Shown: positions 21,668 to 62,145, counted from the stretch's first letter. The stretch: 64,000 nt of DNA from an archaeon (GCA_038874115.1 JAVZDC010000002.1:110531-174530); one strand, 5' to 3'. The notes: generated from the sequence alone by a model not told the origin. Numbers and translations are program-made.

Positions 21668-21717
21668 ACGCCTCTTTATTTTAAACATGTTTAAAAAATA
21701 TATCTTTTTCGAAGAGT

Positions 21718-39279: not shown

Positions 39280-39321
39280 ACCTAAATTTTATTTTTTAAA
39301 GCTTAATAATCTTTCGCGAGT

Positions 39322-39944: not shown

Positions 39945-39964
39945 TTAAATCTTTCCCCCGCTTT

Positions 39965-40249: not shown

Positions 40250-40280
40250 ACTTAATCCTTTCCATAATATATAAATTTTT

Positions 40281-40604: not shown

Positions 40605-40610
40605 AATTGT

Positions 40611-40973: not shown

Positions 40974-40974
40974 T

Positions 40975-45684: not shown

Positions 45685-45797
45685 GAGATCAAACCATTTG
45701 TCCTCTATCGAATAATAAATTTCTTTTAAATTCGTAAGACCACCTTTATCATGTTCTATTTTCTAATGCCACCATAGTATATAAAATTTTTTCTTTT

Positions 45798-46601: not shown

Positions 46602-46752
46602 GAATATTTCTCTAATGCATGAAAATAAAGGAAGGGGTTTGTGCGAATTGTGCTGCGCCTGAAAACATTGGTTTTATGACTGCAAATAAAAGTATTGTTG
46701 CAATGATGATTATTATTAAGATATAAAGTGGAGTCCATTCCATGGAAATTAC

Positions 46753-47175
46753 CTAACATCCCTGTGGTAAAGTAGGTGTACCGCCTATGCCTACGACACA
46801 TTTATTAGTTCCACAAACAGCATAGACATCCACAGGTACATTTTTCTGCGGGGAGAATGTATTCTCATCGCAGTTTGCAATATTATTATTGATATTACTC
46901 GCGCATTCGAATTCTATATCTTTTCCCGCAGCTTCAACAAACTTTGAGGATCTAGCTGAATACGAGGTTCCAGTTTTTAATTTTACTGGAGTTGAACTTT
47001 TTTGAATATTGCAAGGTGAATTTGCTGCAGACTGAAGCAATGCTGCTACGGTTGTATCGAACTCTTGGCCAGGTACTGTTATTCCTCCAAGAATACTTAA
47101 TAAAATCGCTAAAATCATTACCGCAACTACCGCAGCAATCATAAGTTGGAACGTATCGAATGCTTGTCCTTTCAC
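46753..47175 (-). CDS. archaeal type IV pilin-like protein (class III signal peptide)
   Basis: N-terminus MKGQAFDTFQLMIAAVVAVMILAILLSILGG: KGQ motif then hydrophobic helix, matching the archaeal prepilin signal; Cys-containing C-terminal domain. Confidence 0.7.
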   Translation of the reverse strand: MKGQAFDTFQLMIAAVVAVMILAILLSILGGITVPGQEFDTTVAALLQSAANSPCNIQKSSTPVKLKTGTSYSARSSKFVEAAGKDIEFECASNINNNIANCDENTFSPQKNVPVDVYAVCGTNKCVVGIGGTPTLPQGC

Positions 47176-47190
47176 GCATTCACCTCCAAT

Positions 47191-47403
47191 TCACCATTTA
47201 TAATACGGACATATCTTACATTCTTCAGGTACTTGTTCAACAGTCCAAGGTTTTCCTATTAATTCTTTAACTTGCGGTGGGCAATCAGGGAAAGAACCAT
47301 AACAATTTGGAAACTTTTTTGCTTTTTTTATTTCTTCATAAATTTTTTCTCCTTCTTTTTTTCTTTTTATGATCGGTGTCCTTCTTCTTTTACCTCCACC
47401 CAT
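47191..47403 (-). CDS. hypothetical small basic Cys4 protein (70 aa)
   Basis: Highly basic N-terminus (GGGKRRRTPIIKRKK), four Cys (C-x5-C…C-x2-C); sits between two pilin genes. Confidence 0.45.
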   Translation of the reverse strand: MGGGKRRRTPIIKRKKEGEKIYEEIKKAKKFPNCYGSFPDCPPQVKELIGKPWTVEQVPEECKICPYYKW

Positions 47404-47443
47404 AACTTCACTACGTGTTTTTTATATAAAAATCTTTCTTTTT

Positions 47444-47842
47444 TTAAGAACAACTATCTGAGCAAAGATATATTGTACATCCTTGTTGTGAGTCGCACTT
47501 TGTAGATATTGGAATTTTCATATTGTATTTTGCAGTACAAAGGAATCCTTCACAATCTACTTTATTTCCGCACCTGTTCCTAATTCCTATAGATGTATCT
47601 GGGAAAAAATGTTGTATGCTTTTAGATGATATTGTTTCTCCTTTTTTTAGTTCAAAATCCCGAGATATGCATTGGGATGCTACTCTTACAGAATAAGCTT
47701 CCCCAACAATCTCTTTTAATAATGCTCCTGTTTCAAAAGGTTTTGGAGTAGAACTTATATATGCAAAGATTATTGCTGCTAAAGCGATAGCAAAAATTCC
47801 AGCAAGCATCATTTCAAAAATCGTAAAAGCTTGTCCTTTCAT
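47444..47842 (-). CDS. archaeal type IV pilin-like protein (class III signal peptide)
   Basis: N-terminus MKGQAFTIFEMMLAGIFAIALAAIIFAYI; paralogue of 46753..47175; overlaps the platform gene stop by 4 nt. Confidence 0.7.
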   Translation of the reverse strand: MKGQAFTIFEMMLAGIFAIALAAIIFAYISSTPKPFETGALLKEIVGEAYSVRVASQCISRDFELKKGETISSKSIQHFFPDTSIGIRNRCGNKVDCEGFLCTAKYNMKIPISTKCDSQQGCTIYLCSDSCS

Positions 47843-49881: not shown

Positions 49882-52144
49882 GAGCTTCCCTCCTAGCGAT
49901 AAGCGGTTTTACCTGGTTTTCTAAAAACCAGTCTTTCCATTCTTGAATTGCCATTTGATAATCAACCATTCCCAAATCTTCTCTCTGTCTTTCCAGTATT
50001 AAAAGCCAAGCATCATTAGCTGGAACAGTGTATTTCGCTTCCAATAATTCTGGTATTTGGTATTTATTCTTTTGGTCTACTGCAAATTGTTTTATTTCTG
50101 CCCTTGCGTTTATGTCTTCCCAGATTTGTTCAAAAGTTAGTCCTCTTCTTGCACTAATTCTTTTAAAAATCTCAGACTTTCTACAATTTTCTTCTAAAAC
50201 CTTAAAAGAATCTTTATCTACATTGTATTCTATAAGTTGCAAGAAACCATTTTCTTTTTCCGGATCTGAATACCAATGTTTTTCCACACTCGTTATTTCC
50301 ACAACTCTCCTATGTCTTTTCAAAGACCCCTTAAACCTTATTGGAGCACAAACTACACAAACGTCTGTTGCTTTGAAAGAAGTATTTGGAACTCCTAAAT
50401 CGTTTACGATTCTGTCCCATACTGAATATGCGGATTCTCCGTGGATAGTTCCCATAACTACGTTACCTACAGCACCAACTCTCATAGCTTCGTACAAAAC
50501 TAAAGCTTCTTTAGATCTAACTTCTCCAACTATCAATACTGAATCTCCAAGCCTTAAAGCAGTCCTTAATGCTTCTTCTGGCGGTACTTCAGCACTTGTT
50601 CTAGATACTGCTATTGCTGATTGCGTTTTTAATCTTTGAATGTTAAATCCAAGCCCTTTCATGAATTCGACTGGAAGTTCTAAAGTGTCTTCTAGAGTTA
50701 GAATTCTTAAACTTGGCAATATTTCCAACATTAAAGCTTGAAGAAGAGATGTTTTCCCTGCCCCTCTTGAACCAACAACAAGAGTGGATGCTTGCGCATC
50801 TATTAAATAAGATAATAAACCAGCTACTTTGCTATCTATCATTTTTACATCTATAAATTGTTGTAATGTCCACGGAGTTTCTTTATGCAATCTTAGTGCA
50901 AACGCAGTACCATCAGGGGATAAAGGTGGTCCAATAACTGCAATTCTTGTTTGTAAATCTCTTAAATCAAAATCCAAGACCGGATGGGCTTCATCAAAAG
51001 GTCTTCCAGAAAGGGCTCTAAACCTAGATACCAAAGTTTTTGCTTCTTCTTCAGTAAAAACAACGTTTGTTTGGCAAGAACCATATTCTCCATGCACAAC
51101 GTAGACAGGTTTGGTTCCAAGAGGAGCATCGATATAGACATCAGTTAACTTTCTATCAGAAAGCAACAATTCCAATATCCCGTAACCAACAGTATATCTG
51201 CAAACAATTCCAGCAATTTCCGAAGCTTCTTTTCCAGTAATTTTTATTCCATGTTTATTGGCCAAATCTATAATCGTTGTTTCATAAACTCCAAGCAAAT
51301 AGTTCCTTAGTTCTTCCGGATTAGCAAAATGTAATCCTTCAGGAGAATAAGTTGAAACAATATCTTTAGTCTTCGAAAGTAAAAAGTATTTTTCTGGAGG
51401 CAAGTTGTATTCTGGAGGGGCAATATAATAAAGATATTGAACTTTTGCTGGATGTTTGTATATATTTACAGTCGCATCTTTTACATAATATTGGTCCACT
51501 AATTCTATTTCTTCTGGAGTTGCGAAAAAAACTCTGGATGCAACAAAAGCAGGTTTTATTTGAGCTTCAAATAAACTATGATAAATAGTTCTTCCTGGCG
51601 GAATTCTCCCAAGCTTTTTTATAATTTCTTTTGTTTTTTGAATTAGAGTAGTTTTTTCAAAAGCAGCTAACATGAAATATAGTGTATTTAAGTATATGTC
51701 GCTACATTCTTTTTCTATTCCTTGAAGGCCGGCATTCCTTTCATTCTCTCTTTTCAAAGCTTCAACCAAAGTTAAATATGCTCGGAGAGGGTCTGTTTTT
51801 AAAAGATCTTGAGCAATGGAGACGACTAATGAATACCGTCCAGGAATTTCTCCTTCGCATTGAGGATGGCCAAGTCTTGAAGAATTCCACACTCCTTCCC
51901 TATAAAATAAGTTCCCCAATTCTCCGATTTCTTTAAGCATTTTTGTTTGTTCTTCAGAATATATTATTTCATAAACTTCAGCTAGAACAACCATGTCTGC
52001 ATTTGTTCTAGCCAACTTTTCTATAACTTCCCTCATGCATTGTGGAAAATCAGCAACAGAAGGGCCCCACTCGCTTCCTCTATAATCAATGATTAAATAC
52101 CTCTTTGTTCCTTCTGTTTTTATTGTGAAATCATGCGCAGCCAT
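49856..52144 (-). CDS. type II/IV secretion-system ATPase (FlaI/VirB11/PilB superfamily) with long N-terminal extension
   Basis: 762 aa; Walker A VVGSRGAGKTSLLQAL, downstream conserved Asp/Glu and His boxes typical of secretion ATPases. Confidence 0.85.
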   Translation of the reverse strand: MAAHDFTIKTEGTKRYLIIDYRGSEWGPSVADFPQCMREVIEKLARTNADMVVLAEVYEIIYSEEQTKMLKEIGELGNLFYREGVWNSSRLGHPQCEGEIPGRYSLVVSIAQDLLKTDPLRAYLTLVEALKRENERNAGLQGIEKECSDIYLNTLYFMLAAFEKTTLIQKTKEIIKKLGRIPPGRTIYHSLFEAQIKPAFVASRVFFATPEEIELVDQYYVKDATVNIYKHPAKVQYLYYIAPPEYNLPPEKYFLLSKTKDIVSTYSPEGLHFANPEELRNYLLGVYETTIIDLANKHGIKITGKEASEIAGIVCRYTVGYGILELLLSDRKLTDVYIDAPLGTKPVYVVHGEYGSCQTNVVFTEEEAKTLVSRFRALSGRPFDEAHPVLDFDLRDLQTRIAVIGPPLSPDGTAFALRLHKETPWTLQQFIDVKMIDSKVAGLLSYLIDAQASTLVVGSRGAGKTSLLQALMLEILPSLRILTLEDTLELPVEFMKGLGFNIQRLKTQSAIAVSRTSAEVPPEEALRTALRLGDSVLIVGEVRSKEALVLYEAMRVGAVGNVVMGTIHGESAYSVWDRIVNDLGVPNTSFKATDVCVVCAPIRFKGSLKRHRRVVEITSVEKHWYSDPEKENGFLQLIEYNVDKDSFKVLEENCRKSEIFKRISARRGLTFEQIWEDINARAEIKQFAVDQKNKYQIPELLEAKYTVPANDAWLLILERQREDLGMVDYQMAIQEWKDWFLENQVKPLIARREALERAKKKV

Positions 52145-52657
52145 TTTAACATTCCTCGTTCCGAATTCGTGAAAGCGACTTTTTTTACTTTTAAAATCTT
52201 GCTATTTTTTTCTATTTTTATAACTCTACTCTCTTTTATAAATCTTTATCCTCTTAAAGTCTTTGTGGCTAAAGGCGTCTCTTTTTTATTAACTCTTTTT
52301 GGTGTACCGCATGTTTTAATCTTCTCAAGCCCAGAGCCAAGCATTTTTGTAGATAATGTCGAAGCCCAAATAAAGGACTTATGTGTTGGACATATGGAAA
52401 TTGCGTTGATTTGTTCGATAATCTTAGCTTGTGATGATCGTTCTGTTAAATCTCGAGTTCTTGGTGCCTTTTGTTCTATTCCTTTTGTTTTTTTCTTAAA
52501 TCCTTTAAGAATCTCGGTCGTTTTGTTTTTTGGGCATTATTTCTCCTGGCCTTTTGCAGACTTTATTCATGATGTTCTTTTCAGGCTCACTCTTTTTATT
52601 GTAATTCTTATTTACTTTCTGATTTGGTATGTTTTATCCTGGAAGTTTAAGTTATAA
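52133..52657 (+). CDS. possible small polytopic membrane protein with Cys-Ser / Asn-x-x-Arg motifs (exosortase/archaeosortase-like?), or non-coding
   Basis: 174-aa ORF in the 550-bp divergent intergenic region; TM helices, EIALICSIILAC and FLNPLRISV. May be spurious (AT-rich DNA gives hydrophobic ORFs) or may start internally. Confidence 0.3.
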   Translation: MRSHFNIPRSEFVKATFFTFKILLFFSIFITLLSFINLYPLKVFVAKGVSFLLTLFGVPHVLIFSSPEPSIFVDNVEAQIKDLCVGHMEIALICSIILACDDRSVKSRVLGAFCSIPFVFFLNPLRISVVLFFGHYFSWPFADFIHDVLFRLTLFIVILIYFLIWYVLSWKFKL

Positions 52658-52696: not shown

Positions 52697-53833
52697 ATGT
52701 CAAAGAAAATAATTTCAAATGCTTTCTTACTTTTGGTTTTGGCGAGTGTAGGATTCGCTGGATTCCAGACAATTTCTCCTTCCGAAGGAGGGTTTGTTTT
52801 TACTGACTTTCAAGAAATGACGATGTCTGGGTTTGCAGATTTTCTTGCTGAGAAAGCTTTGGAAAAGAAAGGAACGTATTTTGTTCATATAACTTCTGCA
52901 GATTGTAAAATTAATTTAGATAACTTCCGCGACTTTGCTTCTTCTACAAACTATGTAACAGTTTCCAAATATTCTATTGAAGATACTTCTTCTGGCAAAT
53001 CGCAAGATACTTTTTATCCAGGGTATTATGTTTTTAGTGTGAAAGATAAGGGAAAGGAAACTGTAAGTATTTCTGGCAAGGCTTTGAAAAAGGAGAGTAC
53101 TAGTTTACCGGATAAAGAATGCATTAGCAAATACCAAGGAGTTAGAGCAGATCAATGGGCGGGTTTCGGAAAAGAAAATGCCGGAATTCTCTATAGTGCC
53201 AGTAATCTTGTATACCCTGAGGATCAAGGAGAGGAATGCGGAAATATAGTTGCATGGTGGGGGGCGGCACAGAGACTCACCGGTATGGGGGCTGATCGGG
53301 CGGGGTGCGATACCAATGAGGGTGTGCCTATGCCAAGAGTCTATTACCGAGTGGTGCAAGATATTTTAGGGTTAGAACCTAAAGATTGTAGTGGCACCTT
53401 GGAAGATTGTTGTATATCTCATGCTACAGAGTGGATGAAGAACAATATTCGATATGATTCTTTCAGCGTTTTAAAGTACAACGATACCGCGATTTATTAT
53501 GACGGTGTTAATATTCCTTTAACTTATTATAATTATTATGCCACGGTTAAACCAAAAGTAGATAAAGGAACAGAAATGAATCCCAAGTGTTTTGGTTCGG
53601 GAATTCAGCGCTTTTGGTGGATCGTGGATTATTTATACTGTGTAAAGGGTTCAAAATGCATGGAGTCTGATGGTTCAAGGTTCGTTGCGCCTTGCAGTGC
53701 TAAATCCGGTTATGGAACATGCTGTCATGGAGATGTCCTTTATAGTGATGATGGAAAACCGCACTGTTGCCCAAGCGGTTACTCCAAAGTCATAGATTTT
53801 GGAAATGGAAATGTTCGGTGCTTTAAGAGTTAA
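52697..53833 (+). CDS. secreted cysteine-rich protein (378 aa)
   Basis: N-terminal signal peptide (KKIISNAFLLLVLASVGFAG), many Cys including CC pairs (DCCISHA, TCCHGD, PHCCPSG); locally elevated GC. Confidence 0.7.
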   Translation: MSKKIISNAFLLLVLASVGFAGFQTISPSEGGFVFTDFQEMTMSGFADFLAEKALEKKGTYFVHITSADCKINLDNFRDFASSTNYVTVSKYSIEDTSSGKSQDTFYPGYYVFSVKDKGKETVSISGKALKKESTSLPDKECISKYQGVRADQWAGFGKENAGILYSASNLVYPEDQGEECGNIVAWWGAAQRLTGMGADRAGCDTNEGVPMPRVYYRVVQDILGLEPKDCSGTLEDCCISHATEWMKNNIRYDSFSVLKYNDTAIYYDGVNIPLTYYNYYATVKPKVDKGTEMNPKCFGSGIQRFWWIVDYLYCVKGSKCMESDGSRFVAPCSAKSGYGTCCHGDVLYSDDGKPHCCPSGYSKVIDFGNGNVRCFKS

Positions 53834-53864
53834 TCTTTAAATTCTTATTTTCCCTTGTTTATTC

Positions 53865-54407
53865 ATGAAAGGACAAGAATCTGCACCAATTGAGCTTCTT
53901 TTAGGGACGATAATCCTAAGCTTTGTGTTAGTTTTGGTTTATTTTACTTACCAAAATCTTTCTGGAAAGCAATATTCTGCAGCATTACAAGTTGCATTTT
54001 CAAAACTTGGAAGTGAGTTGGAATTTGTGTACCAAGGAGCTGTGGGTACAAAAAGAGTACTTTCTTTAGATTTTTCTCCTTTAGAGGGCACAGGAAAAAA
54101 GACAGCGATAAAAATTCTTCATGGGCACAAGGAGACATGTTTAAAACAAACTGGAAAAGAAAACTGTTGGCAATTGATCGCCGTACAAGGTGAAGAAGGA
54201 CAAGCAGGAGTTTTATATTCTTTAGCATTAAACATTCCAACATCAATCGCGATAAAATTCAAGAATGCAACAGGAGACGAAGCGGTATGTGAAAATGAAT
54301 ACAGTTCTTGGAGCTCTCCTATACCTTGCCAATGGAAACCTACAAGATATACTTTGACTATAGAAAAGACAAGCAATAATGAAATAATAATTAGTCAAGT
54401 GAGTTAA
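53865..54407 (+). CDS. prepilin-like protein (class III signal peptide)
   Basis: N-terminus MKGQESAPIELLLGTIILSFVLVLVYF (KGQ + hydrophobic helix). Confidence 0.6.
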   Translation: MKGQESAPIELLLGTIILSFVLVLVYFTYQNLSGKQYSAALQVAFSKLGSELEFVYQGAVGTKRVLSLDFSPLEGTGKKTAIKILHGHKETCLKQTGKENCWQLIAVQGEEGQAGVLYSLALNIPTSIAIKFKNATGDEAVCENEYSSWSSPIPCQWKPTRYTLTIEKTSNNEIIISQVS

Positions 54408-54408
54408 T

Positions 54409-54921
54409 TTGCGAGGAATATCTGTCTGGCTTTTTTCAAAAATAATAATGCTTCTTTTCGTATTTTTAGCATTCGCATTAATGACGTCTTTTTATGTCTC
54501 AGTGAAAGAAAAAGAATTTACAGATTCTGCATATTTCTTTACTGAACAATTAAAAGAAAGAATTCAGATGATTGCTTTTGCAGACGTTCTTGAATCTCAG
54601 ACTCAGTTTTATTTACCAAAAACTCTTCCAGAAGAAAGGCAAGAAAAAGGAAGATTTTATACTTTAACTATAGGGAAAAAAGAAGATGTTTTCTATATTC
54701 TTCTTTCTTGGGGGACAGAAAAATCTCCGAAAAAATATTTAGTTGCTCAAGGTTTTAATATAAGTAAGGAATATAAGGTTAATAAGCAAGATTCTTGTAA
54801 GATAACTGTCCAATCATCGGAATATATTTGGTTAAATATCTCTAAGAAAGAAAAAGAGTTGACAATCCAAAAATGTAAGTCATCGACATCCTGTGACCAA
54901 CCAAAATGTGAGGGTTCATGA
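54409..54921 (+). CDS. prepilin-like protein (class III signal peptide)
   Basis: N-terminus MRGISVWLFSKIIMLLFVFLAFALM (RG + hydrophobic helix). Confidence 0.55.
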   Translation: MRGISVWLFSKIIMLLFVFLAFALMTSFYVSVKEKEFTDSAYFFTEQLKERIQMIAFADVLESQTQFYLPKTLPEERQEKGRFYTLTIGKKEDVFYILLSWGTEKSPKKYLVAQGFNISKEYKVNKQDSCKITVQSSEYIWLNISKKEKELTIQKCKSSTSCDQPKCEGS

Positions 54922-55304
54922 AAGGGTACATTGGTCCTTTAGGGGATGATATTCCAGGAATAATTTCCATAGTTTTAGCATTCTCAATTTTCTTTGCTGG
55001 TTTTTCTATAGCAATGACTACTTTGAATGAAAAAACTGTTGTTATTCAAAAGTTTAAGGGAACCATGGAAATTGCGAAAGCAATAAATTCAAAAACCGTT
55101 CTTCCAGAGAATTTGGAAGATTTACGGAAAGATGCACAGAGAATTGCAACTACAAGAGCTTTACAGTTTAATCTTTCTTATAAAGATACAAGAAGTCAAA
55201 TGGTTTGTGGAGAAAAAGCATTTTATCTTACATACTTTGTTGCAAGATATAATCAAGGTCAAACAGAAATAGTTCCAGATATATTGACAATTTGCGTTTG
55301 GTGA
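54918..55304 (+). CDS. prepilin-like protein (class III signal peptide)
   Basis: N-terminus MKGYIGPLGDDIPGIISIVLAFSIFFAGF; start overlaps the preceding gene stop by 4 nt. Confidence 0.5.
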   Translation: MKGYIGPLGDDIPGIISIVLAFSIFFAGFSIAMTTLNEKTVVIQKFKGTMEIAKAINSKTVLPENLEDLRKDAQRIATTRALQFNLSYKDTRSQMVCGEKAFYLTYFVARYNQGQTEIVPDILTICVW

Positions 55305-55308
55305 ATGA

Positions 55309-55824
55309 ATGAATAAAGCCCAAGCAGCTCTTTTCGACGCTCTTTTCTTTATGTTTTTAGCAGCTGGAGCAGCTTACTTATTACTTTTCGTGGCTGCAAA
55401 CTATGCTGCGGATACACAAAATCAAGTAGCTTTCACGTATAATTATGATTATCTCTCAAACGTTTTTGTAGCGTTACATTATTTAAAAGATGATTCTGGA
55501 AACTTTTTTTGGTTAAAATTTGAAGAAAAATTGGGGAAAGAAGAACAAAGTTGCAATTATTTGAAAGATTATTTTGGTTTGACAAAGGTTACTTATGATC
55601 CAAACGATCATGAAAAAGCAAAACCTATTTTAGAACTTTTGAATGCTTCAAGTCCAAGTGATTGTTTTGTTTTGGAAATAAGGGAAAATGGGTGCAAGAT
55701 ATACGTTTCCGGAAGTGAGGCTACTTGCGAAGAAAGCAAAGAAAGAAATCAAGTAATTGCTTATTCCACCGGAATTTCTAAAGGTCTTAAATCTTATACT
55801 TTAACTTTGAAGGTTTTGCGCTGA
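55309..55824 (+). CDS. prepilin-like protein (class III signal peptide)
   Basis: N-terminus MNKAQAALFDALFFMFLAAGAAYLLLF (K-A-Q + hydrophobic helix). Confidence 0.5.
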   Translation: MNKAQAALFDALFFMFLAAGAAYLLLFVAANYAADTQNQVAFTYNYDYLSNVFVALHYLKDDSGNFFWLKFEEKLGKEEQSCNYLKDYFGLTKVTYDPNDHEKAKPILELLNASSPSDCFVLEIRENGCKIYVSGSEATCEESKERNQVIAYSTGISKGLKSYTLTLKVLR

Positions 55825-58800
55825 GAATCTTTTTCTTATTATAAGAATTCCTAAAATTACTGCAATCAGGAAAGGTAAGAATTCTATCCCTTCAGGAACG
55901 CTTGGTAACTGAGCCAAGATGCTTGGTTTTTCAGAAGGTTTTGTTGGCCCACCGCCAGCTACTCTACTCGTGCCTAAGAAGTTTTGCATAGGTATTATTC
56001 CTCCCCCAGCCCAACCGCCTCCAAGAGTCTGGAAACTTGGGTTTAAGTTAAGTGGGAATTCATTACTAATCGATATTTTTCCTGATTCAGCATTGAATAT
56101 TATGGACCCTTGCGGGCTTCCAAACAACCATACTGGGAATGAACTAACAGGCTTTCCGTCTTTTGAAATTTCTACAACTGGTTCTCCGTTTGGTCCAGTT
56201 TTAACTTTTAATTCCATCCCATCGTCAAATTTTATTACCCCATCTTTTATCTCTTTTATATCATGACATTCTTCTTTGCCTTCTTTGTTCCAGCATAATT
56301 GATTATCTTTTATGTAAATAGATTCGTTTTTGTCTAATGAAACAATCCTGTCAAAGCACATTTCTTCCAACAATGCTTGCAGTTGAGCTCTTTCATCCGG
56401 GTCTCTTGTTTCAGCTACAAGTTTAAATCCTTTTAACCCATCAGTTTCGCAAGGATCTGTAATTCTCCAATTCTCAAAGTTTGTGCTTTCATCAACGTAT
56501 AAATCATAGAAGAATAAGTGCATTACATTCCTTCCATATGTTTTAGATTCTTCTTTTGCCCTGCCGATTACTGTTTTCTCGTTTTCAAACTCAATATAGC
56601 TTCTAGAGTCCATAGTAAATAAACAAGAACCTGCTTGTATGCTTCCATTCCTATAAACAGTTATTTCTTGGCCAACAGACAATACTTTTCCAAGCCCGTG
56701 AACTTCTTCTCCACATTTTGATTCTTTCAAAAATCTAACATAAAATCCATCTTTTTCTTTCCAAATGTACCCTTCTTTTGTGTTTATGAATTGGAATCCT
56801 CCAAAGGCGTTTTTAATTATTTTTTCTTTGTATGCTTCTTTTGCGTTTACTCCTCCAAACAATTTCAAAATAGCATTTTTAACGCAATCATTCTCGATAG
56901 TTACAGTATCATCAGAACGTATTTTGAATAATGTATCATCTTTCATGAATACGTTTATTACTTGGAGTGGTAATCCTAAATATCCTCGATCGTTGTGCCA
57001 TCTTAATCCTAATAACTCTGGCCCTTCAAGGATCAAATTACCCTTTTCATCATAAAGGTAATATCCTTTTCCTTCTATGCATTTGAATTTCCCTTCTTCT
57101 ACTTGTTGGCAAAATTGTATTGGGCAGTCTTCGCCAGTATTGAAGTCAAATATTGTGTCTGGATCAAAGTGGAATTGATAGATTTCAGGCATGAAATAAT
57201 TCATGTTGTTTGGAGGGTTTATTTTTCCTTGAATGTTTAAAATTTGAGTATAAGTAGATGCGCTCACAATCTCAGATATTTTATTTGCCGCTTCTGGTGC
57301 AAAGCCTTGGAGTAAAGTTCCTAAACTTTGTACTGCAGGTTTAAGTTGTGAAGATAATTGAGCTGTTAAGTCATCAGCCTCTTCCTTCAATTCTCCTCTG
57401 TCAACTTGTTGGAATGCTAAAAGAGAAAACTTAGTTTCTTTACATCTTTTTAAGCGTTCTAATCCTTCTGCTTTTGCTTCTTCATATTGTCTTTGGGCTT
57501 CATAAGACCATAGACTAGTAGCTATTGATGCAATTGTTGTAGCAGGTTTCACTATAGCTCCGACTCCACTGTACGTAGCTACCGTATCTACGCTTGTCGC
57601 AGCAAGGTCAGCTATAATGGCCGCATAGTACCATCCGAACTTCTCATCTACTTTTCCTTCAACATCCACAAGAGTTTTTTCACAATCTTCTCCAGATGCG
57701 TATGCTGCCAATGGATCAGAGATTGGCGCCCATCTAACTTCTTTCATATGTTCTGATATTTCTTGCATAACTCTACCTTGTTGTTGTAGACCAGCGGCAA
57801 TAGCGATAGCGACAAGTGCTCTTGATGCAGGAGTGATTCCTCCAAAGGTAGGTAGTGGGACTATAAAAGAGGTTAAAAGAATCGATTTTCCAACATCCCC
57901 CCAGTTAGGCATTTGTGCAGCCACTTTCGAAGCAGGTAATTGAGCCCAATCTTCTGTTGATGGGGCCCAACCACTCATGTTTACATTCGTGATATCCATC
58001 CCAATACTTGAGACAAACGTTTTTCCAAAATAGAATAAGCTCGATGGATGTTCATACAAATAATAAGCTGTTTCTAACGGATTTCCTACGGTAGCGAACA
58101 TTATTTTTCCCGGGCTTGCTTCTGTTATTCCGAAAACATTAAGTGGTCTTGCAGAAGTTAAAGCAGTTGTAAGTCCTTGTTCTTGGTCTGCTATAAAAAC
58201 ATAAGATTGCTTTCCACTTTGTACCTTTTGTGCAATTAATGGTATATCTTTCCATTCAATACCAAATACAAGGTTAGTGGATTTTATCCAAGCACTTGGA
58301 GGTCTGAAATCTTCTCCTTCAATTCCATCTTCGGCAGCATATTTTAGTTTTGTTACAACGATGTCAAGATATGAAGATTGATTTATGAGTTTTCGAGTAG
58401 GAGTTAACTCAAATTCTAAAGCATGAACTAATATTTCTCCTTTTGGTTCTTGGGTAAGAGCCCAAGCTCCAACAAGCAACATTGCAGCTCTGTGCATCAA
58501 AGCTTGAGCATGCGCCAGAGTTAAAGCGTTTAGCACATACCTACCTCCATTTATCAGGAACGTCACCCCAGCTCTGTAAAGACCTTCCTCAGCTTTAATG
58601 ATTATACCCTTTTTCGTACCTTTTTCAACTTCTAGATACCTGCTCAAATCGATAGTTTTCTTTCCTATAGAAATTTTAGATCTCCCTTCAGCAATGAGTT
58701 TTATCTCTTCATCCGATGGTTGCTCAATTATTTTTCTAACAAATTTGAGTCTAGGGTCCTTCACCAACCCACCCTCAGAGTTTTTCAGTTCCGATATATA

Positions 58801-60126
58801 ACCTTGTATTTTGTCCAAGCAACCTTCTTTAACACAAAATTCTTTCTCATATTCTCCTACGAGTCCATTTTCTATAGCATTTTTCATATCCTTTGGCATC
58901 TTTCCTTCTTTTATAAGCTCTTGTAGTTCTTTTTCAGATAGCCCTAATTCTTTTTCTGTTAGTGTTTTTATTCCTGAATACTCTACAAAAGCCTTTTCCA
59001 TAAGCTTATCATTATTTTTAAGCTCTTCTTCCAAACTCGTCATTTCTTTTTCCAACCTGGAAAGCCTCCATTTACCAATCCGCCCCAACTTCCCCGATCC
59101 TTCAAGTTCTTTCAATCCTTTTACTTTTTCACTAATCTCCATGTACTTTTTAGCCTGTGCTGCAATACCAGACTTTGTAACAGTCGTCCCCTTTTTCATC
59201 CCTCCTTTCAAAGAGGCAAACCCAACAGCAGTGCTTACCCATCCAGCAATTTCAGCATATTCTTCCAACCCTGCTTTTCCAGCAAGGAAATGAGTATAAG
59301 CTAATAGAGTTTTTGGTATCAAAAATCCAAAATCCATTTGAGAAAGAAGTCCAGTTGTTCTATTGCTTTCAATTATGTTCATCCTTCCTGTTTGTTGTAT
59401 GTCCATTATTTTTGTCGATAAATCCATTATTGCCATTGCAGCTTTATCTTTTTCCCCTCCTTTTATAGCATTCATGCTTTCTTCATATATTTCTTTATAC
59501 TGTTCTTTCCACCCGCTTTCACTCCATGCTCTCTCCAAATCTTGTTCTGAATTCTTTTCTATTGCGTTTAGCAATGCTTGGATTTTTCCATAATTCTGAG
59601 CATTTGTTTCTTTCTGAGCTTCACTTAAGTATCCATTTTCACAAGCAGGGTCATGAATTTCAGAACAGATTCTTGTATTCCAATCTATTTTTCCAGCAAA
59701 GCTTATTGCTCCCCTATAAAAAGCATCAGTAAGGTAACATTGAGACCCAGCAGGAACTATCTTATGTTGAAGAGTATCAAAAAGGAGTATTGGCTTTCCT
59801 CCAGGACCAAGAATAAATAAGTCCTTTACATTATTTACAGAAGAATCAGGAGAAACGCCTGCTTTATTATATGTATCTGCTCTTTTTTGAGCTTCCGTAT
59901 TTCCATAAAAGTCAATAGTTATCGAATTATTCAAAAGCCTTTCATATTCGCTCGCATTCAATGTGACAATCTCAACTTCCTTTTCACAATTTTGTACATT
60001 TTTTATTTTATACATCGAAGTAATATTAATCTCTTTTGAAATTGCAAAACTTATCGGTTCTAACGTTGAGAAAAATAATATTCCAAAAAACAAAATCGCT
60101 ATTAATTTATCTCGCATATCTTCCAA
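55801..60126 (-). CDS. giant (1441 aa) secreted/surface protein with C-terminal PEF/PGF-CTERM-like sorting signal
   Basis: N-terminal signal/TM (LIAILFFGILFFSTLEPISFA); no recognised catalytic domain; C-terminus PSVPEGIEFLPF-LIAVILGILII-RKRF (motif, TM helix, basic cluster); GC above local background. Confidence 0.8.
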   Translation of the reverse strand: MEDMRDKLIAILFFGILFFSTLEPISFAISKEINITSMYKIKNVQNCEKEVEIVTLNASEYERLLNNSITIDFYGNTEAQKRADTYNKAGVSPDSSVNNVKDLFILGPGGKPILLFDTLQHKIVPAGSQCYLTDAFYRGAISFAGKIDWNTRICSEIHDPACENGYLSEAQKETNAQNYGKIQALLNAIEKNSEQDLERAWSESGWKEQYKEIYEESMNAIKGGEKDKAAMAIMDLSTKIMDIQQTGRMNIIESNRTTGLLSQMDFGFLIPKTLLAYTHFLAGKAGLEEYAEIAGWVSTAVGFASLKGGMKKGTTVTKSGIAAQAKKYMEISEKVKGLKELEGSGKLGRIGKWRLSRLEKEMTSLEEELKNNDKLMEKAFVEYSGIKTLTEKELGLSEKELQELIKEGKMPKDMKNAIENGLVGEYEKEFCVKEGCLDKIQGYISELKNSEGGLVKDPRLKFVRKIIEQPSDEEIKLIAEGRSKISIGKKTIDLSRYLEVEKGTKKGIIIKAEEGLYRAGVTFLINGGRYVLNALTLAHAQALMHRAAMLLVGAWALTQEPKGEILVHALEFELTPTRKLINQSSYLDIVVTKLKYAAEDGIEGEDFRPPSAWIKSTNLVFGIEWKDIPLIAQKVQSGKQSYVFIADQEQGLTTALTSARPLNVFGITEASPGKIMFATVGNPLETAYYLYEHPSSLFYFGKTFVSSIGMDITNVNMSGWAPSTEDWAQLPASKVAAQMPNWGDVGKSILLTSFIVPLPTFGGITPASRALVAIAIAAGLQQQGRVMQEISEHMKEVRWAPISDPLAAYASGEDCEKTLVDVEGKVDEKFGWYYAAIIADLAATSVDTVATYSGVGAIVKPATTIASIATSLWSYEAQRQYEEAKAEGLERLKRCKETKFSLLAFQQVDRGELKEEADDLTAQLSSQLKPAVQSLGTLLQGFAPEAANKISEIVSASTYTQILNIQGKINPPNNMNYFMPEIYQFHFDPDTIFDFNTGEDCPIQFCQQVEEGKFKCIEGKGYYLYDEKGNLILEGPELLGLRWHNDRGYLGLPLQVINVFMKDDTLFKIRSDDTVTIENDCVKNAILKLFGGVNAKEAYKEKIIKNAFGGFQFINTKEGYIWKEKDGFYVRFLKESKCGEEVHGLGKVLSVGQEITVYRNGSIQAGSCLFTMDSRSYIEFENEKTVIGRAKEESKTYGRNVMHLFFYDLYVDESTNFENWRITDPCETDGLKGFKLVAETRDPDERAQLQALLEEMCFDRIVSLDKNESIYIKDNQLCWNKEGKEECHDIKEIKDGVIKFDDGMELKVKTGPNGEPVVEISKDGKPVSSFPVWLFGSPQGSIIFNAESGKISISNEFPLNLNPSFQTLGGGWAGGGIIPMQNFLGTSRVAGGGPTKPSEKPSILAQLPSVPEGIEFLPFLIAVILGILIIRKRFSAQNLQS

Positions 60127-60697
60127 CCTTTTTAGTACTTCTCTTAAACCTCCACACCACGATTAATCCAGTAATTATTGCACTTAATATTACTATCGCA
60201 ATTATATTTTCAGTGAGAAATCCTCCTTTTATTTCCTCGTATAAAATTAAATCATAGCCATCGAATAAACCAACGAATTTCCCCCCAGTCATATAACTAC
60301 AATTATAACTTGTAGCATTTTCCTCTCTTTCAAGAATCTTGCATTTTTTAAAGTCTACTAATTCTGGAGCAAGATAAAACTCATCGATGTCTGAAGCCGG
60401 AATCGTAAAACTTTCTCTCGAAGTTTTGTTAGCTTTAAGAGACTTAACCAAAAAATTCCAAGAAATTTCCGTAGGTTCTAATATTTTACCTTCTGCTACG
60501 CACCCAATCTCTGATCCTTCAATTTTTGTACAAGTTACAGAATTCAACTCAACGCTTACAGTTATATTGCCTAATTCAGGGCAATATATGTTATCAGAAT
60601 CATTAAAGCAGATATCTTCAACTAATAAATCCATCGCACTTTTGCTCTGCGCAAAACATATTCCAATAAGAAACATCAACAAAATGTATTTTTTCAT
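60107..60697 (-). CDS. secreted protein with signal peptide and C-terminal TM anchor + basic tail (196 aa)
   Basis: N-terminus MKKYILLMFLIGICFAQS, several Cys pairs, C-terminus IIAIVILSAIITGLIVVW-RFKRSTKK; overlaps the start of the giant gene by 20 nt. Confidence 0.65.
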   Translation of the reverse strand: MKKYILLMFLIGICFAQSKSAMDLLVEDICFNDSDNIYCPELGNITVSVELNSVTCTKIEGSEIGCVAEGKILEPTEISWNFLVKSLKANKTSRESFTIPASDIDEFYLAPELVDFKKCKILEREENATSYNCSYMTGGKFVGLFDGYDLILYEEIKGGFLTENIIAIVILSAIITGLIVVWRFKRSTKKVGRYAR

Positions 60698-61155
60698 TAT
60701 CCCAAACCCATATCAATTAATATTAACTGCAGCAAGATTTTTAAAAATATTGCAAAAACAGCCCAAAAAATTAAACTTACAAAGAGACAAACAAGCAAAA
60801 TCTTTAATATTCTATTTATTTTCCACTCTATTTTCGAATAAACCCAAGAACCAAGAAACGTGAAAGGCAAGCATATGAGAGAACAAATTATGAGTGCAGG
60901 TATGAAGGAAGCTTCTAAAGAAAATCCGTAAAATAGTGCATAATATATTCTTAAGATTATTGCTCCAATTGCAACTCCGATAAAAGTTAATAAAACGTTT
61001 TTTAAAATTTTATTTTTTATATTTTTCCCTAATTCTGCACACATTATCGCTATTACCCAAGAGAAGATTCCAGTTAAAAGTACGACAGTTGGAAAAGTTA
61101 AAGGATTAAAACCAAAAAGCAAGATTGTTAACCCTAAGTATGAAAGTGGATCCAT
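60697..61155 (-). CDS. small polytopic membrane protein with conserved Cys (candidate sorting/processing enzyme, family unknown)
   Basis: 152 aa, ~4-5 TM helices, contains ALIICSLICLPF and WKINRILK; first gene of the three-gene operon ending in the giant protein. Confidence 0.5.
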   Translation of the reverse strand: MDPLSYLGLTILLFGFNPLTFPTVVLLTGIFSWVIAIMCAELGKNIKNKILKNVLLTFIGVAIGAIILRIYYALFYGFSLEASFIPALIICSLICLPFTFLGSWVYSKIEWKINRILKILLVCLFVSLIFWAVFAIFLKILLQLILIDMGLG

Positions 61156-61203: not shown

Positions 61204-62145
61204 ATGTTTGATATTTTTTGGTACTCAGCTTATGCATTTTTCTTACTAGGAAGTACAAGTTTCGGTTATTTTATTCTCAGATTTGCTTTTCCAGAAATAA
61301 GAGCAACGTCAAAGGAACATAAAACTGGCTTTTCAATAATCTTGGGAACAGGGGTTTTTGTTGTAAGTGCTTTGGTCAGCCTTCTTTTGGGCCAGATTCT
61401 TCTCCCGGTCTTAATGCTTGTTTTTACTTTCGTCTCAATAGGTTTGGCTTATTTTAAAGTAATCTTTTTTGCCCCAAACGTTGTGCGCGTTGCTATCCCT
61501 CAAGCAAGAATAGCGCCTGCTGAAGCACCTAAAACTCCTAAAGAAGAAAGATTGGAAGAAGAACTTGAAAAAATTAAGGCTGAGGAAAAACATGAAGAAT
61601 TAAAGGAAGAAAAGAAACCGGAAGGAGTGAAAGAAGAAATAAAAATTGAGGAAAAATATGCTGCTTTGCTTGATGTTTTAAAGAAAAAGAAAATTGAAAA
61701 GGTTGAAGAAAAACCGTTAGAGGTTCCAAAACCGGTTGAAGAAGTAAGGCCGCGTGGAAGAGAAAGATACATGAGAAAAAGAGAAGAATTAAAGAAAGAA
61801 TCGATGTTGGAAGAGGCTAAGAGAAGCATATCTTATGAAGAGCCTTCATCTTTAACCGTTTCAGATCTACCTTCAGTTACTTTGGAAGATTTAGGTATTT
61901 CTTTTGAGTCTGAAGAAATGAAGACTTTAGAAGACCTTGCTGGTTTAGTTTCTGAAGAAAAAATAGAAAAAGAAAAAACTCCTAGATGTCCAAACTGCCA
62001 TGCAATAACTTCCACTATAATTTATTGTCCTTATTGTGGAAAACCTTTCTGTTCAAACTGTGCTTTAACCGTTAAAACAAGAGGAAATTTGATTTTTTAT
62101 TCTTGCCCGCACTGTAAAAAAGAAGTTATAATGAAAAAAGAATAA
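61204..62145 (+). CDS. membrane protein with Lys/Glu-rich linker and C-terminal double zinc ribbon
   Basis: 313 aa; N-terminal TM helices, long charged linker, C-terminus CPNC…CPYCGKPFCSNC…CPHC. Confidence 0.6.
   Translation: MFDIFWYSAYAFFLLGSTSFGYFILRFAFPEIRATSKEHKTGFSIILGTGVFVVSALVSLLLGQILLPVLMLVFTFVSIGLAYFKVIFFAPNVVRVAIPQARIAPAEAPKTPKEERLEEELEKIKAEEKHEELKEEKKPEGVKEEIKIEEKYAALLDVLKKKKIEKVEEKPLEVPKPVEEVRPRGRERYMRKREELKKESMLEEAKRSISYEEPSSLTVSDLPSVTLEDLGISFESEEMKTLEDLAGLVSEEKIEKEKTPRCPNCHAITSTIIYCPYCGKPFCSNCALTVKTRGNLIFYSCPHCKKEVIMKKE

What the first reader, a model, noticed from the sequence alone, without database searches (positions are those of the whole stretch)
55801..61155. Three-gene operon: small Cys-containing polytopic membrane protein, C-terminally anchored secreted protein, giant protein with PEF/PGF-CTERM-like signal
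The 1441-aa protein ends in …PSVPEGIEFLPF-LIAVILGILII-RKRF, the tripartite layout (short Pro/Glu/Phe motif, TM helix, basic cluster) of archaeosortase/exosortase substrates. The 1282-aa beta-helix protein at 17879-21667 ends similarly (…PAPEDKLEF-ILTVLLTIFFLCL-HNKK…), and the 196-aa protein also ends in a TM helix plus RFKR. The operon starts with a 152-aa polytopic protein carrying ALIICS and NRIL motifs. I have a tentative recollection that exosortase-family enzymes carry a Cys-Ser active-site motif and a downstream Asn/Arg motif; on that unverified basis it may be a minimal sortase-like enzyme for these substrates.
Basis: partly seen in the sequence, partly recalled or inferred. Interest (0 to 1): 0.7.

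Follow-up and report, generated by a model that had tools for sequence, protein, structure and literature searches.

The report
Giant surface-protein operon beside an archaeosortase

Summary
The three overlapping minus-strand ORFs (152, 196 and 1441 aa) and the quoted C-terminal tails are real. The genes are under purifying selection. Positional orthologues of all three exist in a Micrarchaeota MAG, and orthologues of the giant and/or the small membrane protein exist in two further lineages.

None of the tails reaches the cutoff of any known CTERM model. Across three lineages the giant's tail keeps a Gly/Pro linker, an A-x-LP-x-[VT]-P motif, a TM helix and a basic cluster. The unrelated 1282-aa beta-helix protein carries the same P-x-PE[GD]-x-EF motif directly before its own terminal TM helix.

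The 152-aa protein is not sortase-like. It matches no exosortase model and shows no similarity to the local sortase. Its ALIICS cysteines and its NR motif are not conserved in orthologues.

The real archaeosortase-family gene is the 174-aa ORF at 52133-52657, with invariant Cys84, Arg126 and His146. It lies 3.1 kb from the giant's 3' end, divergent from a type-IV-filament ATPase. This sortase, filament genes, pilin block and giant module recur together in related DPANN genomes.

Most likely the operon encodes a filament-associated surface module. Processing of the giant's tail by the 174-aa sortase is plausible but unproven.

The parts
60697..61155 (-). First gene of the operon: a 152-aa small membrane protein with four or five helices. 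It is not sortase-like.
   Evidence: ORF; TM scan. AF2 gives five helices at pLDDT 66. No family hit. Orthologues are L006 6416..6910 (25% identity over 134 aa, E 5e-5) and L013 1586..2038. No invariant Cys/His/Arg.
60107..60697 (-). Second gene: a 196-aa protein with a Sec signal peptide, an ectodomain of about 140 aa with six Cys, a C-terminal TM helix and RFKR. It looks like a type I membrane partner.
   Evidence: No family hit. The orthologue L006 11886..12485 (199 aa) shares the CPELG motif and the same architecture (E 4e-4). It is 94% identical to the L001 fragment, with dN/dS 0.21.
55801..60126 (-). Third gene: the giant protein (1441 aa from TTG; 1438 aa from ATG 60117). In order it has a signal peptide, a Cys-containing N-domain, a charged helical region that varies in length, several weakly hydrophobic helices, a beta-rich C-terminal half, a Gly/Pro linker, a TM helix and a basic tail.
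   Evidence: No Pfam, NCBIfam, PHROG or PDB hit. Orthologues occur in L003/L006 (E 1e-56), L005/L007 (E 2e-68) and, by position and architecture only, L013.
55804..55914 (-). C-terminal tail of the giant (residues about 1405-1441): AQLPSVPEGIEF, then TM helix LPFLIAVILGILII, then RKRF plus 8 residues. This is the candidate sorting signal.
   Evidence: Alignment A3 has invariant A, L, P and P in the motif and F, G, L and I in the TM helix. Tails are compared. No known CTERM model reaches its cutoff.
52133..52657 (+). A 174-aa short archaeosortase/exosortase-family protein. This is the actual sortase homologue of the region.
   Evidence: PF09721 38.7 bits (gathering score 25.7) and TIGR04178 42.2 bits (cutoff 23). 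210 relatives were found. C84, E89, N123, R126, H146, F150 and W165 are invariant in 41 sequences. NCBI name: archaeosortase/exosortase family protein.
53865..55824 (+). Four pilin-like genes (180, 170, 128 and 171 aa), each with a class-III-type signal peptide ([KR][GA] right after Met, then a hydrophobic helix). They converge on the giant gene and overlap its 3' end by 24 nt.
   Evidence: Orthologues occur in the same order next to the giant module in L001, L003/L006, L005/L007 and L013.
52697..53833 (+). A 378-aa Cys-rich secreted protein directly downstream of the sortase.
   Evidence: No family hit and no homologue in the related loci.
47839..52144 (-). Type-IV-filament core: a 762-aa T2SSE/FlaI-like ATPase (49856..52144) and a 680-aa T2SSF-type platform protein (47839..49881). 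The ATPase is divergent from the sortase.
   Evidence: Pfam T2SSE 71.8 bits, and T2SSF 20.0 bits, which is below its gathering score of 25.2. NCBIfam FlaI/TadA-type hits. The ATPase is 56-67% and the platform protein 38-48% identical to their orthologues in L003, L005, L012 and L013.
38619..47842 (-). Rest of the filament supercluster. It holds two pilin-like genes (MKGQAF...), a 267-aa RGFSLF-type pilin-like protein, a 1569-aa CarboxypepD_reg/Ig-like giant, and seven small membrane proteins.
   Evidence: All have orthologues in L003.
61204..62145 (+). Divergent neighbour of the operon: a 313-aa protein with a TM domain, a charged coiled coil and a C-terminal double zinc ribbon.
   Evidence: It is 32% identical (E 7e-45) to the gene in the same position in L006.
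17879..21727 (-). A 1282-aa secreted right-handed beta-helix protein. Its tail YPAPEDKLEF + TM + HNKK resembles the giant's tail.
   Evidence: Pfam Beta_helix and NosD. Tail shown. The shared regex occurs only in these two proteins, each time abutting the terminal TM helix.

Best explanation
The window comes from a low-GC DPANN archaeon related to Micrarchaeota. Positions 55801-61155 hold a conserved three-gene cell-surface module, made of three parts:
- a Sec-exported giant protein of about 160 kDa, held at the membrane by a C-terminal tail (Gly/Pro linker, A-x-LP-x-[VT]-P motif, TM helix, basic cluster);
- a small type I membrane protein with a disulfide-rich ectodomain;
- a small multi-helix membrane protein.

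The module always sits next to a block of four pilin-like genes. That block belongs to a large type-IV-filament (TFF) supercluster, which also encodes a short archaeosortase (174 aa, 52133-52657).

Shown: the operon, the tail architecture and its conservation, the conserved neighbourhood, the identity of the sortase, and the non-sortase nature of the 152-aa protein.

Inferred:
- The giant is displayed on the cell surface as an adhesin or host-contact protein working with the filament.
- The two small proteins help its insertion, folding or anchoring.
- The 174-aa archaeosortase recognises the motif before the TM helix of the giant, and of the 1282-aa beta-helix protein. By analogy with ArtA it would cleave there and re-anchor the protein. 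I put this last step alone at about 0.35-0.4.
For: Operon and coding reality.

All three genes have positional orthologues in Candidatus Micrarchaeota B47_G15 (L006: 164 aa, then 1654 aa, then 199 aa). The same divergent Zn-ribbon gene is also there.

Giant orthologues also occur in L005/L007, and a 150-aa plus giant pair occurs in L013.

Wherever the sequence runs past the four-pilin block, the giant module follows. This holds for the window/L001, L003/L006, L005/L007 and L013. It holds despite an inversion of the central ATPase/sortase block between the window and the relatives, and despite a different order of the three genes.

The tail is conserved at 26-30% overall identity: ILAQLPSVP / ILAALPWTP / LIAELPSTP, followed by a TM helix with conserved F, G, L and I, then a basic cluster.

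The regex P.{1,2}PE[DG].{1,2}EF hits only the giant and the unrelated 1282-aa protein among 57 ORFs (19,885 aa). Both hits abut the terminal TM helix, and shuffles expect 0.005 hits (the regex was derived after seeing the tails).

The sortase passes PF09721 and TIGR04178. Cys84, Arg126 and His146 are invariant across 41 relatives. The Cys-Arg spacing is 42 residues, against 41 in H. volcanii ArtA, where Cys173, Arg214 and Arg253 are essential (PMC9263693).

The sortase is divergent from the TFF ATPase in the window, L002, L003, L005, L011, L012 and L013.

A short archaeosortase (ArtE) is required for pilus-dependent transformation in M. maripaludis (PMC10133366).
Against: No tail reaches the cutoff of any curated CTERM model.

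In L005/L007 the LPSTP motif lies about 45 residues before the TM helix rather than abutting it. This is atypical for exosortase signals.

The sortase's most constant neighbours are a [KR]GFS[LV]F-type pilin-like protein and a CarboxypepD_reg giant. Neither has a C-terminal tail.

In L010, L012 and L014 no tailed protein lies within the DNA held. In L012 the locus ends inside the pilin block.

Only three or four lineages could be examined, and they are related, so part of the synteny may be inherited gene order.

No domain of the giant could be identified. Both AF2 models were low confidence (pLDDT 66 and 37), so the adhesin role is inference only.

The tail carries 8 extra residues after the basic cluster.
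Confidence: 0.5

Rival explanations
1. The C-terminal tails are ordinary, permanent type I TM anchors. The neighbouring archaeosortase acts on some other substrate, or has a different role in the filament system. The giant module is simply a membrane-anchored surface complex.
For: - No CTERM model is matched.
- The 196-aa partner has a plain TM helix plus basic tail with no motif.
- In L005 the conserved LPSTP lies far from the TM helix.
- The sortase's tightest conserved neighbours are the pilin-like protein and the CarboxypepD_reg giant, not the tailed giant.
- C-terminal TM anchoring without processing is known for archaeal surface proteins such as SlaB (PMC6098224).
Against: - A Pro-containing motif sits just before the TM helix and is conserved across 26-30%-identical orthologues.
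- The same motif-plus-TM layout is shared with an unrelated protein of the same genome.
- An archaeosortase with its catalytic residues intact is encoded in the same supercluster.
Confidence: 0.35
2. One reading: the 152-aa membrane protein is a minimal exosortase-like enzyme. Its Cys (ALIICS) and Asn/Arg (NRIL) would process the two downstream tailed proteins.
For: It is co-transcribed with two proteins that end in a TM helix plus a basic cluster. It is a small multi-helix membrane protein, and short archaeosortases are of similar size.
Against: - No hit to any exosortase or archaeosortase model in Pfam or NCBIfam.
- No similarity to the genuine local sortase.
- Cys91, Cys95, Asn114 and Arg115 are not conserved in the L006 and L013 orthologues, and the family has no invariant Cys/His/Arg.
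- By the positive-inside rule the NR motif lies in a Lys-rich cytoplasmic loop, while the Cys sits in the outer half of a TM helix, so they are on opposite sides of the membrane (inference).
Confidence: 0.02
3. The adjacency of the operon to the filament/sortase supercluster is inherited gene order among related small genomes. It has no functional meaning, and the operon acts independently (for example in envelope structure).
For: All loci with the giant come from related DPANN lineages. Long-range synteny extends beyond the cluster to PAC2, the Zn-ribbon gene and a second T2SSF locus.
Against: The giant module stays attached to the four-pilin block even though the central block is inverted, the order of the three genes differs (152-196-giant against 164-giant-199), and the module's orientation relative to the pilins differs (convergent in the window, L003 and L005; co-directional in L013). 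Retention through rearrangements argues for selection on linkage.
Confidence: 0.15

Closest known systems
Archaeosortase A / PGF-CTERM system (Haloferax volcanii ArtA and the S-layer glycoprotein)
   Same: Both have a polytopic Cys/Arg enzyme of the exosortase superfamily. Both have substrates with a Sec signal peptide and a C-terminal tripartite signal (short motif, TM helix, basic cluster) preceded by a low-complexity linker. The Cys-Arg spacing is about the same (42 against 41 residues).
   Different: The local enzyme is 174 aa with about 5 TM helices, not the larger ArtA, and it did not register a TIGR04125 (ArtA) match. The motif is LPx[VT]P / PxPE[GD]xEF, not PGF. No processing or lipidation has been shown. 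The gene sits in a type-IV-filament locus.
Short archaeosortases ArtB (VPXXXP-CTERM), ArtD (PIP-CTERM), ArtE, pacearchaeosortase, and exosortase XrtM
   Same: Size (150-190 aa), the catalytic core alone, and weak cross-hits: ArtB 32 bits, ArtD 21 bits, XrtM 23 bits, pacearchaeosortase 16 bits. Relatives also hit ArtE (best E 2e-17). ArtE is genetically linked to a pilus-dependent process in M. maripaludis.
   Different: All scores are far below the subfamily cutoffs (80-150 bits). The tails match none of the cognate CTERM models. This looks like a separate DPANN (Micrarchaeota/Diapherotrites) subfamily that lies divergent from a TFF ATPase.
Archaeosortase C / PEF-CTERM
   Same: In the window the tail reads ...PEGIEF + TM + RKRF, which superficially has P, E and F before the TM helix.
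   Different: TIGR03024 scores only 9-10 bits (cutoff 23). The EF is not conserved in orthologues (TETTQ, or a long insert). No ArtC-type enzyme was found.
Archaeal type IV filament systems with large adhesin-like proteins (for example 'system 2' in bioRxiv 10.64898/2026.04.22.720090)
   Same: An ATPase with a long N-terminal extension, a single-gene platform protein, many class-III-signal pilin-like genes, membrane accessory proteins and very large secreted proteins, all in one locus.
   Different: That survey mentions no sortase or exosortase component. It also mentions no C-terminal transmembrane anchor, though this was only a term search. The giant here has no Ig or PilY-like domain that could be detected.
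Gram-positive sortase / LPXTG cell-wall sorting and sortase-built pili
   Same: An LPx[VT]P motif followed by a TM helix and a basic tail resembles LPXTG + TM + basic. A pilus locus encoding a Cys transpeptidase-like enzyme is a functional parallel.
   Different: The enzyme families are unrelated and no class A-F sortase is present. The fifth motif residue is Pro, not Gly. The TIGR01167 score of the L006 tail (16.1 bits) comes only from the TM and basic part. Archaea of this group have no peptidoglycan.

Membership tests
Exosortase/archaeosortase superfamily: 152-aa protein (60697-61155) | Match to the exosortase/archaeosortase signature models (PF09721, TIGR04178) | tested here: not met
   No such hit at E <= 1 in Pfam or NCBIfam. 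No similarity to the local 174-aa sortase.
Exosortase/archaeosortase superfamily: 152-aa protein (60697-61155) | Conserved catalytic Cys and Arg (plus His/Arg) | tested here: not met
   C91, C95, N114 and R115 are replaced in the L006 and L013 orthologues. Alignment A4 has no invariant Cys/His/Arg/Asn.
Exosortase/archaeosortase superfamily: 152-aa protein (60697-61155) | Exosortase fold | tested here: inconclusive
Exosortase/archaeosortase superfamily: 174-aa protein (52133-52657) | Match to the signature models above their curated cutoffs | tested here: met
   PF09721 38.7 bits against 25.7, and TIGR04178 42.2 bits against 23. All 41 aligned relatives also match TIGR04178 at E <= 0.001.
Exosortase/archaeosortase superfamily: 174-aa protein (52133-52657) | Conserved Cys and Arg catalytic residues | tested here: met
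   C84, R126 and H146 are invariant in 41 sequences, and R151 is conserved in the closest relatives. This compares with ArtA C173/R214/R253.
Named archaeosortase subfamilies (ArtA-F, pacearchaeosortase, heimdallarchaeosortase) | Score above the subfamily-specific cutoff | tested here: not met
   ArtB 32.4 bits against 150, ArtD 21.3 against 125, pacearchaeosortase 15.7 against 80. No ArtA, ArtC, ArtE or ArtF hit for the window protein.
Known CTERM sorting signals (PGF-, PEF-, PIP-, VPXXXP-, PEP-, Heimdall-, Loki-CTERM and others) | The tail scores above the model cutoff | tested here: not met
   Giant tail: Heimdall-CTERM 11.5-13 bits against 24, PEF-CTERM 9-10 bits against 23. The 1282-aa tail has no hit. 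The 196-aa tail has no relevant hit.
Exosortase/archaeosortase substrate (generic) | N-terminal signal peptide plus C-terminal motif / TM helix / basic cluster | tested here: met
   Met by the giant and the 1282-aa protein. The 196-aa protein has a TM helix and basic cluster but no motif.
Exosortase/archaeosortase substrate (generic) | The same signal recurs in several proteins of a genome, and only in genomes with the cognate sortase | tested here: inconclusive
   Two proteins in 64 kb share the motif. The rest of the genome could not be read. The giant and the sortase co-occur in four lineages, but no systematic survey was possible.
Exosortase/archaeosortase substrate (generic) | C-terminal cleavage and re-anchoring of the mature protein | not testable with these tools
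   This needs proteomics or genetics.
Archaeal type IV filament (TFF) locus | Secretion ATPase, platform protein and class-III-signal pilins | tested here: met
   T2SSE 71.8 bits, plus a weak T2SSF match on the 680-aa protein (20.0 bits against a gathering score of 25.2), whose orthologues are 38-48% identical in the related loci. At least seven ORFs start M-[KR]-[GA]-x followed by a hydrophobic helix.
Archaeal type IV filament (TFF) locus | Class III signal peptidase (PibD/EppA type) | tested here: not met
   No Peptidase_A24 hit among the window proteins scanned. It may be encoded elsewhere in the genome.

The most novel reading that the evidence does not exclude
In Micrarchaeota-type DPANN archaea, a dedicated short archaeosortase is an integral component of a type-IV-filament machine. 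It recognises a new LPx[VT]P-type C-terminal signal on a giant surface protein of unknown fold, and on other secreted proteins such as the beta-helix protein. It then either lipid-anchors them or couples them covalently to filament or envelope components. This would be an archaeal counterpart of sortase-assembled pili, used for attachment to or membrane contact with the host cell.
Probability: 0.15. Interest if true: 0.75.

Novelty: new variant of a known kind. Interest (0 to 1): 0.45.

Why it matters
DPANN archaea depend on physical contact with host cells, yet the surface machinery behind this is largely unknown. This region offers a concrete, conserved candidate: a filament system, a sortase-family enzyme and a giant anchored protein with two dedicated membrane partners.

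If the sortase does process the LPxxP-type tail, archaeosortase biology would extend beyond the Euryarchaeota S-layer paradigm into DPANN. It would add a new sorting signal, and it would link C-terminal protein sorting to type IV filaments. So far only one genetic result hints at that link (ArtE and transformation in M. maripaludis).

If it does not, the locus is still a useful correction. The small membrane protein is not an enzyme of this family, and the tails are ordinary anchors.

Tried and rejected
- Word-based homologue searches found only self or near-self for the giant and the 174-aa protein, and nothing for the 152-aa protein.
- Sequence searches of the PDB with the 152-aa, 174-aa and giant proteins, and with a three-sequence profile of the giant, found nothing.
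- PHROGs found nothing.
- Pfam on the orthologues of all three genes found nothing.
- AF2 of giant residues 951-1441 gave pLDDT 37 and was unusable, so no fold search was run on it.
- The search for related loci with sortase alignments failed because no stretch was conserved enough.
- Genome and metagenome scans with the giant alignment returned only the already known Micrarchaeota contig and one near-duplicate of L005.
- The giant is not the Micrarchaeota S-layer protein. That protein is 101 kDa with TIGR01564-type domains, and none are present here.
- An internal duplication of the 152-aa protein is hinted at by a cross-match but is not significant by BLAST of its two halves.
- A visual resemblance between the C-terminus of the 378-aa protein and the C-terminus of the L003 CarboxypepD_reg giant was not supported by BLAST.
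- No second archaeosortase and no prepilin peptidase were found among the window ORFs scanned; not every ORF was scanned.

Full report
**1. Observation**

The window is a chromosomal stretch of a low-GC (about 33%) archaeon. It carries split RNA polymerase genes, translation factors and intron-containing tRNAs.

Three co-directional minus-strand ORFs lie at the stated coordinates:
- 152 aa, 61155..60697
- 196 aa, 60697..60107
- 1441 aa from TTG at 60126, or 1438 aa from ATG 60117 as NCBI calls it, ending at 55801

Neighbouring genes overlap by 1 nt and by 11-20 nt. A TATA-like box lies 25-35 nt upstream of the first ATG. The quoted tails and the ALIICS and NRIL strings are present.

In a scan of all ORFs of at least 100 aa, only the giant, the 196-aa protein and the 1282-aa beta-helix protein (17879..21727) end in a lone C-terminal TM helix followed by a basic cluster.

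Against an 86%-identical relative (L001, GCA_038885235.1), dN/dS is 0.15-0.22 for the giant and 0.21 for the 196-aa gene.

**2. Family searches on the three proteins**

None of the three proteins matches any Pfam, NCBIfam or PHROG family or any PDB sequence.

I scanned the tails on their own against NCBIfam, which holds the CTERM models. The giant tail scores 11.5-13 bits on Heimdall-CTERM (cutoff 24) and 9-10 bits on PEF-CTERM (cutoff 23). The 1282-aa tail scores nothing. The 196-aa tail scores nothing relevant. No known sorting-signal model is therefore met.

**3. Where the sortase really is**

The 174-aa ORF at 52133..52657 (+) passes Pfam Exosortase_EpsH (38.7 bits, gathering score 25.7). 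It also passes the NCBIfam exosortase/archaeosortase signature TIGR04178 (42.2 bits, cutoff 23). NCBI names it archaeosortase/exosortase family protein.

An exhaustive HMMER search found 210 relatives, mostly 160-220 aa. In an alignment of 41 of them, C84, E89, N123, R126, H146, F150 and W165 are invariant. The Cys-Arg spacing of 42 residues matches the 41 between the essential Cys173 and Arg214 of H. volcanii ArtA (PMC9263693).

The protein stays far below the cutoffs of every named subfamily: ArtB 32 bits against 150, ArtD 21 against 125, pacearchaeosortase 16 against 80. Named relatives come from Micrarchaeota/Micrarchaeia and Diapherotrites MAGs.

The 152-aa protein has no similarity to this sortase.

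**4. Genomic context**

The sortase is divergent from a 762-aa T2SSE/FlaI-like ATPase. Next to that ATPase is a 680-aa T2SSF-type platform protein (its Pfam T2SSF match, 20.0 bits, is below the gathering score of 25.2).

Behind them on the minus strand lie:
- two pilin-like genes
- an RGFSLF-type pilin-like protein
- a 1569-aa CarboxypepD_reg/Ig-like giant
- seven small membrane proteins

Downstream of the sortase on the plus strand lie:
- a 378-aa Cys-rich secreted protein
- four pilin-like genes with class-III-type signal peptides (53865..55824)

These four genes converge on the giant gene of the finding and overlap its 3' end by 24 nt. The finding is thus the outer edge of a type-IV-filament supercluster of about 22 kb. 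The sortase lies 3.1 kb from the giant's stop codon.

**5. Relatives**

I looked up contigs encoding sortase relatives. I also ran a genome scan with an alignment of the giant. Several contexts emerged.

In Candidatus Micrarchaeota B47_G15 (L003/L006), L005/L007, L012 and L013 the sortase is again divergent from the ATPase and platform operon. The short contigs L002 and L011 show it divergent from the ATPase, as far as they extend. Identities to the window proteins are 56-67% for the ATPase and 38-48% for the platform protein.

In L003, L005, L010, L012, L013 and L014 the sortase is directly followed by a [KR]GFS[LV]F-type pilin-like protein, and a CarboxypepD_reg giant comes next or next but one.

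The window's arrangement equals that of the relatives with the central block [two pilins, platform, ATPase | sortase] inverted.

Homologues of the 1441-aa giant sit next to the same four-pilin block in L003/L006 (26% identity, E 1e-56) and in L005/L007 (27-30% identity, E 2e-68). In L013 a giant occupies that position, but it is assigned by position and architecture only. Its N-terminal fragment shares no significant sequence similarity with the window protein, only the pattern signal peptide, F-x-[LM]-GP-x-G, then Cys motifs.

L006 shows the whole module: a 164-aa polytopic protein, then a 1654-aa giant, then a 199-aa protein with a signal peptide and a C-terminal TM helix. Pairwise comparisons with the window give:
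- 152 aa against 164 aa: 25% identity over 134 aa, E 5e-5
- 196 aa against 199 aa: E 4e-4, with a shared CPELG motif
- the divergent TM/coiled-coil/Zn-ribbon neighbours: 32% identity, E 7e-45

In L013 a 150-aa polytopic protein precedes the giant.

The module keeps its link to the pilin block despite three differences: an inversion, a different internal gene order, and a different orientation (convergent in three lineages, co-directional in L013).

**6. The tail**

In the three lineages where the C-terminus is available, the giant ends as follows:
- window: ...ISISNEFPL-NLNP-F..., a Gly/Pro-rich linker, then ILAQLPSVPEGIEF + LPFLIAVILGILII + RKRF
- L006: ILAALPWTPTETTQ + LLLFVVLLLSGLLLI + RRRR
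- L005/L007: LIAELPSTPGRESQ + an acidic insert of about 40 residues + VILILFMATILGGVLVI + HNKGK

The conserved signature is A-x-LP-x-[VT]-P, not PEF. In two of the three lineages it lies six or seven residues before the TM helix.

Within the window, the giant and the unrelated 1282-aa beta-helix protein share P-x(1,2)-PE[GD]-x(1,2)-EF directly abutting the terminal TM helix. That pattern occurs nowhere else in 57 ORFs (19,885 aa), and shuffles expect 0.005 hits. The pattern was derived from these two tails, so it is suggestive only.

The L006 tail scores 13-16 bits on several sorting-signal models (LPXTG anchor, SrtB target, MYXO-, PEP-CTERM). These matches cover the TM and basic segment rather than the signature motif (for LPXTG_anchor, profile positions 9-32 of 34).

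**7. The 152-aa protein**

The three-way alignment of the window, L006 and L013 proteins has no invariant Cys, His, Arg or Asn. The window's C91 and C95 align with V, F or A. N114 and R115 align with P and K, or fall in a gap.

By the positive-inside rule the NR motif lies in a Lys-rich cytoplasmic loop, whereas the cysteines are in the outer half of a TM helix. This is an inference.

**8. The giant**

It has the following regions, in order:
- a signal peptide
- a Cys-containing N-domain
- a conserved NIIESNRT motif followed by weakly hydrophobic helices
- a highly charged helical region that varies in length
- further Ala/Gly-rich hydrophobic helices, none reaching TM-like hydropathy
- a beta-rich C-terminal half with conserved Cys

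No domain could be recognised in it or in its orthologues. AF2 of residues 951-1441 was unusable at pLDDT 37.

It is not the known Micrarchaeota S-layer protein. A survey of archaeal type IV filament systems notes large adhesin-like proteins in such loci but mentions no sortase.

The only experimental link I found between a short archaeosortase and a pilus-dependent process is the requirement of ArtE for natural transformation in M. maripaludis (PMC10133366).

**9. Interpretation**

Shown:
- a conserved three-gene module for a C-terminally TM-tailed giant secreted protein and two small membrane proteins
- physical attachment of that module to a type-IV-filament supercluster that contains a bona fide short archaeosortase
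- a tail with a conserved Pro motif, shared in layout with a second secreted protein

Inferred:
- The module is a filament-associated surface or host-contact device.
- The 174-aa sortase may cleave and re-anchor the giant at the LPxxP-type signal (about 0.35-0.4).

The main rival is that the tails are permanent anchors and the sortase serves another substrate. Several points favour that rival:
- The sortase's most constant neighbours lack C-terminal tails.
- L005 has a long spacer between the motif and the TM helix.
- No curated CTERM model is matched.

**10. Verdict**

This is a new variant of a known kind. It combines an unclassified DPANN short archaeosortase embedded in a filament locus with an undescribed candidate signal and an uncharacterised giant-protein module. 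Interest is moderate (0.45), because all functional steps remain genomic inference.

Noticed in passing
window 38619-55824: A type-IV-filament supercluster of about 17 kb: ATPase, platform protein, at least seven class-III-signal pilin-like genes, a 1569-aa CarboxypepD_reg giant and seven small membrane proteins. Compared with four related loci, its central block [two pilins, platform, ATPase | sortase] is inverted.
   Followed up: partly
L003 10561-18606; L005 10591-18333; L010 4054-6457; L012 10485-20523; L013 10528-20530; L014 10544-19535: In all these relatives the short archaeosortase is directly followed by a pilin-like protein starting [KR]GFS[LV]F-x-P-[LM]-[VI]G, with a 2100-2700-aa CarboxypepD_reg giant next or next but one. 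Neither has a C-terminal sorting tail. The role of a sortase at this position is unexplained.
   Followed up: partly
window 40975-45684 (N-terminus); L003 11398; L012 12760; L013 12686; L014 12588: The CarboxypepD_reg giants share a conserved N-terminal segment of about 35 residues, presumably cytoplasmic (..Y-x-K-x-EDK-x-Y...G-[IV]-P-[IV]-YS-[IV]-[IV]-DP-I). It lies immediately before their single TM helix. In the window only the distal part remains (KGVPIYSIIDP).
   Followed up: no
window 52697-53833: A 378-aa Cys-rich secreted protein sits right after the sortase, at the inversion breakpoint. It has no detectable homologue in any related locus or family library.
   Followed up: partly
window 61204-62145 and L006 5398-6363: A conserved protein with a TM domain, a charged coiled coil and a double zinc ribbon is transcribed divergently from the three-gene operon in both genomes (32% identity). 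It may be a regulator or a cytoplasmic partner of the module.
   Followed up: partly
window 63276-63944 (runs to the window edge); L006 46-3181: A second, separate filament locus starts at the right edge of the window with a T2SSF-type gene. In the Micrarchaeota relative it continues with a second T2SSF gene and a 540-aa ATPase carrying an N-terminal Cys-rich, ferredoxin-like (4Fe-4S-type) region.
   Followed up: no
window 17879-21727: The 1282-aa beta-helix protein lies between tRNA genes (Thr, Pro / Met, Val). This is the lowest-GC part of the window (0.30-0.33), and its GC skew is reversed relative to other minus-strand genes. It may be a variable or acquired surface-protein island.
   Followed up: no
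window 16593-16696 and 22277-22368: Two tRNA genes are over-long (104 and 92 nt) and probably contain introns. ARAGORN missed the first and mis-read the anticodon of the second.
   Followed up: no
window 31674-32648: A 324-aa membrane protein with about seven TM helices has no Pfam or NCBIfam match. No class III signal peptidase was found in the window for the many pilin-like genes.
   Followed up: partly
window 55801-55824; L001 4511-4534: The giant gene and the last pilin-like gene converge and overlap at their 3' ends by 24 nt. The overlap is conserved in the close relative. In L006 the equivalent convergent pair overlaps by 4 nt.
   Followed up: no
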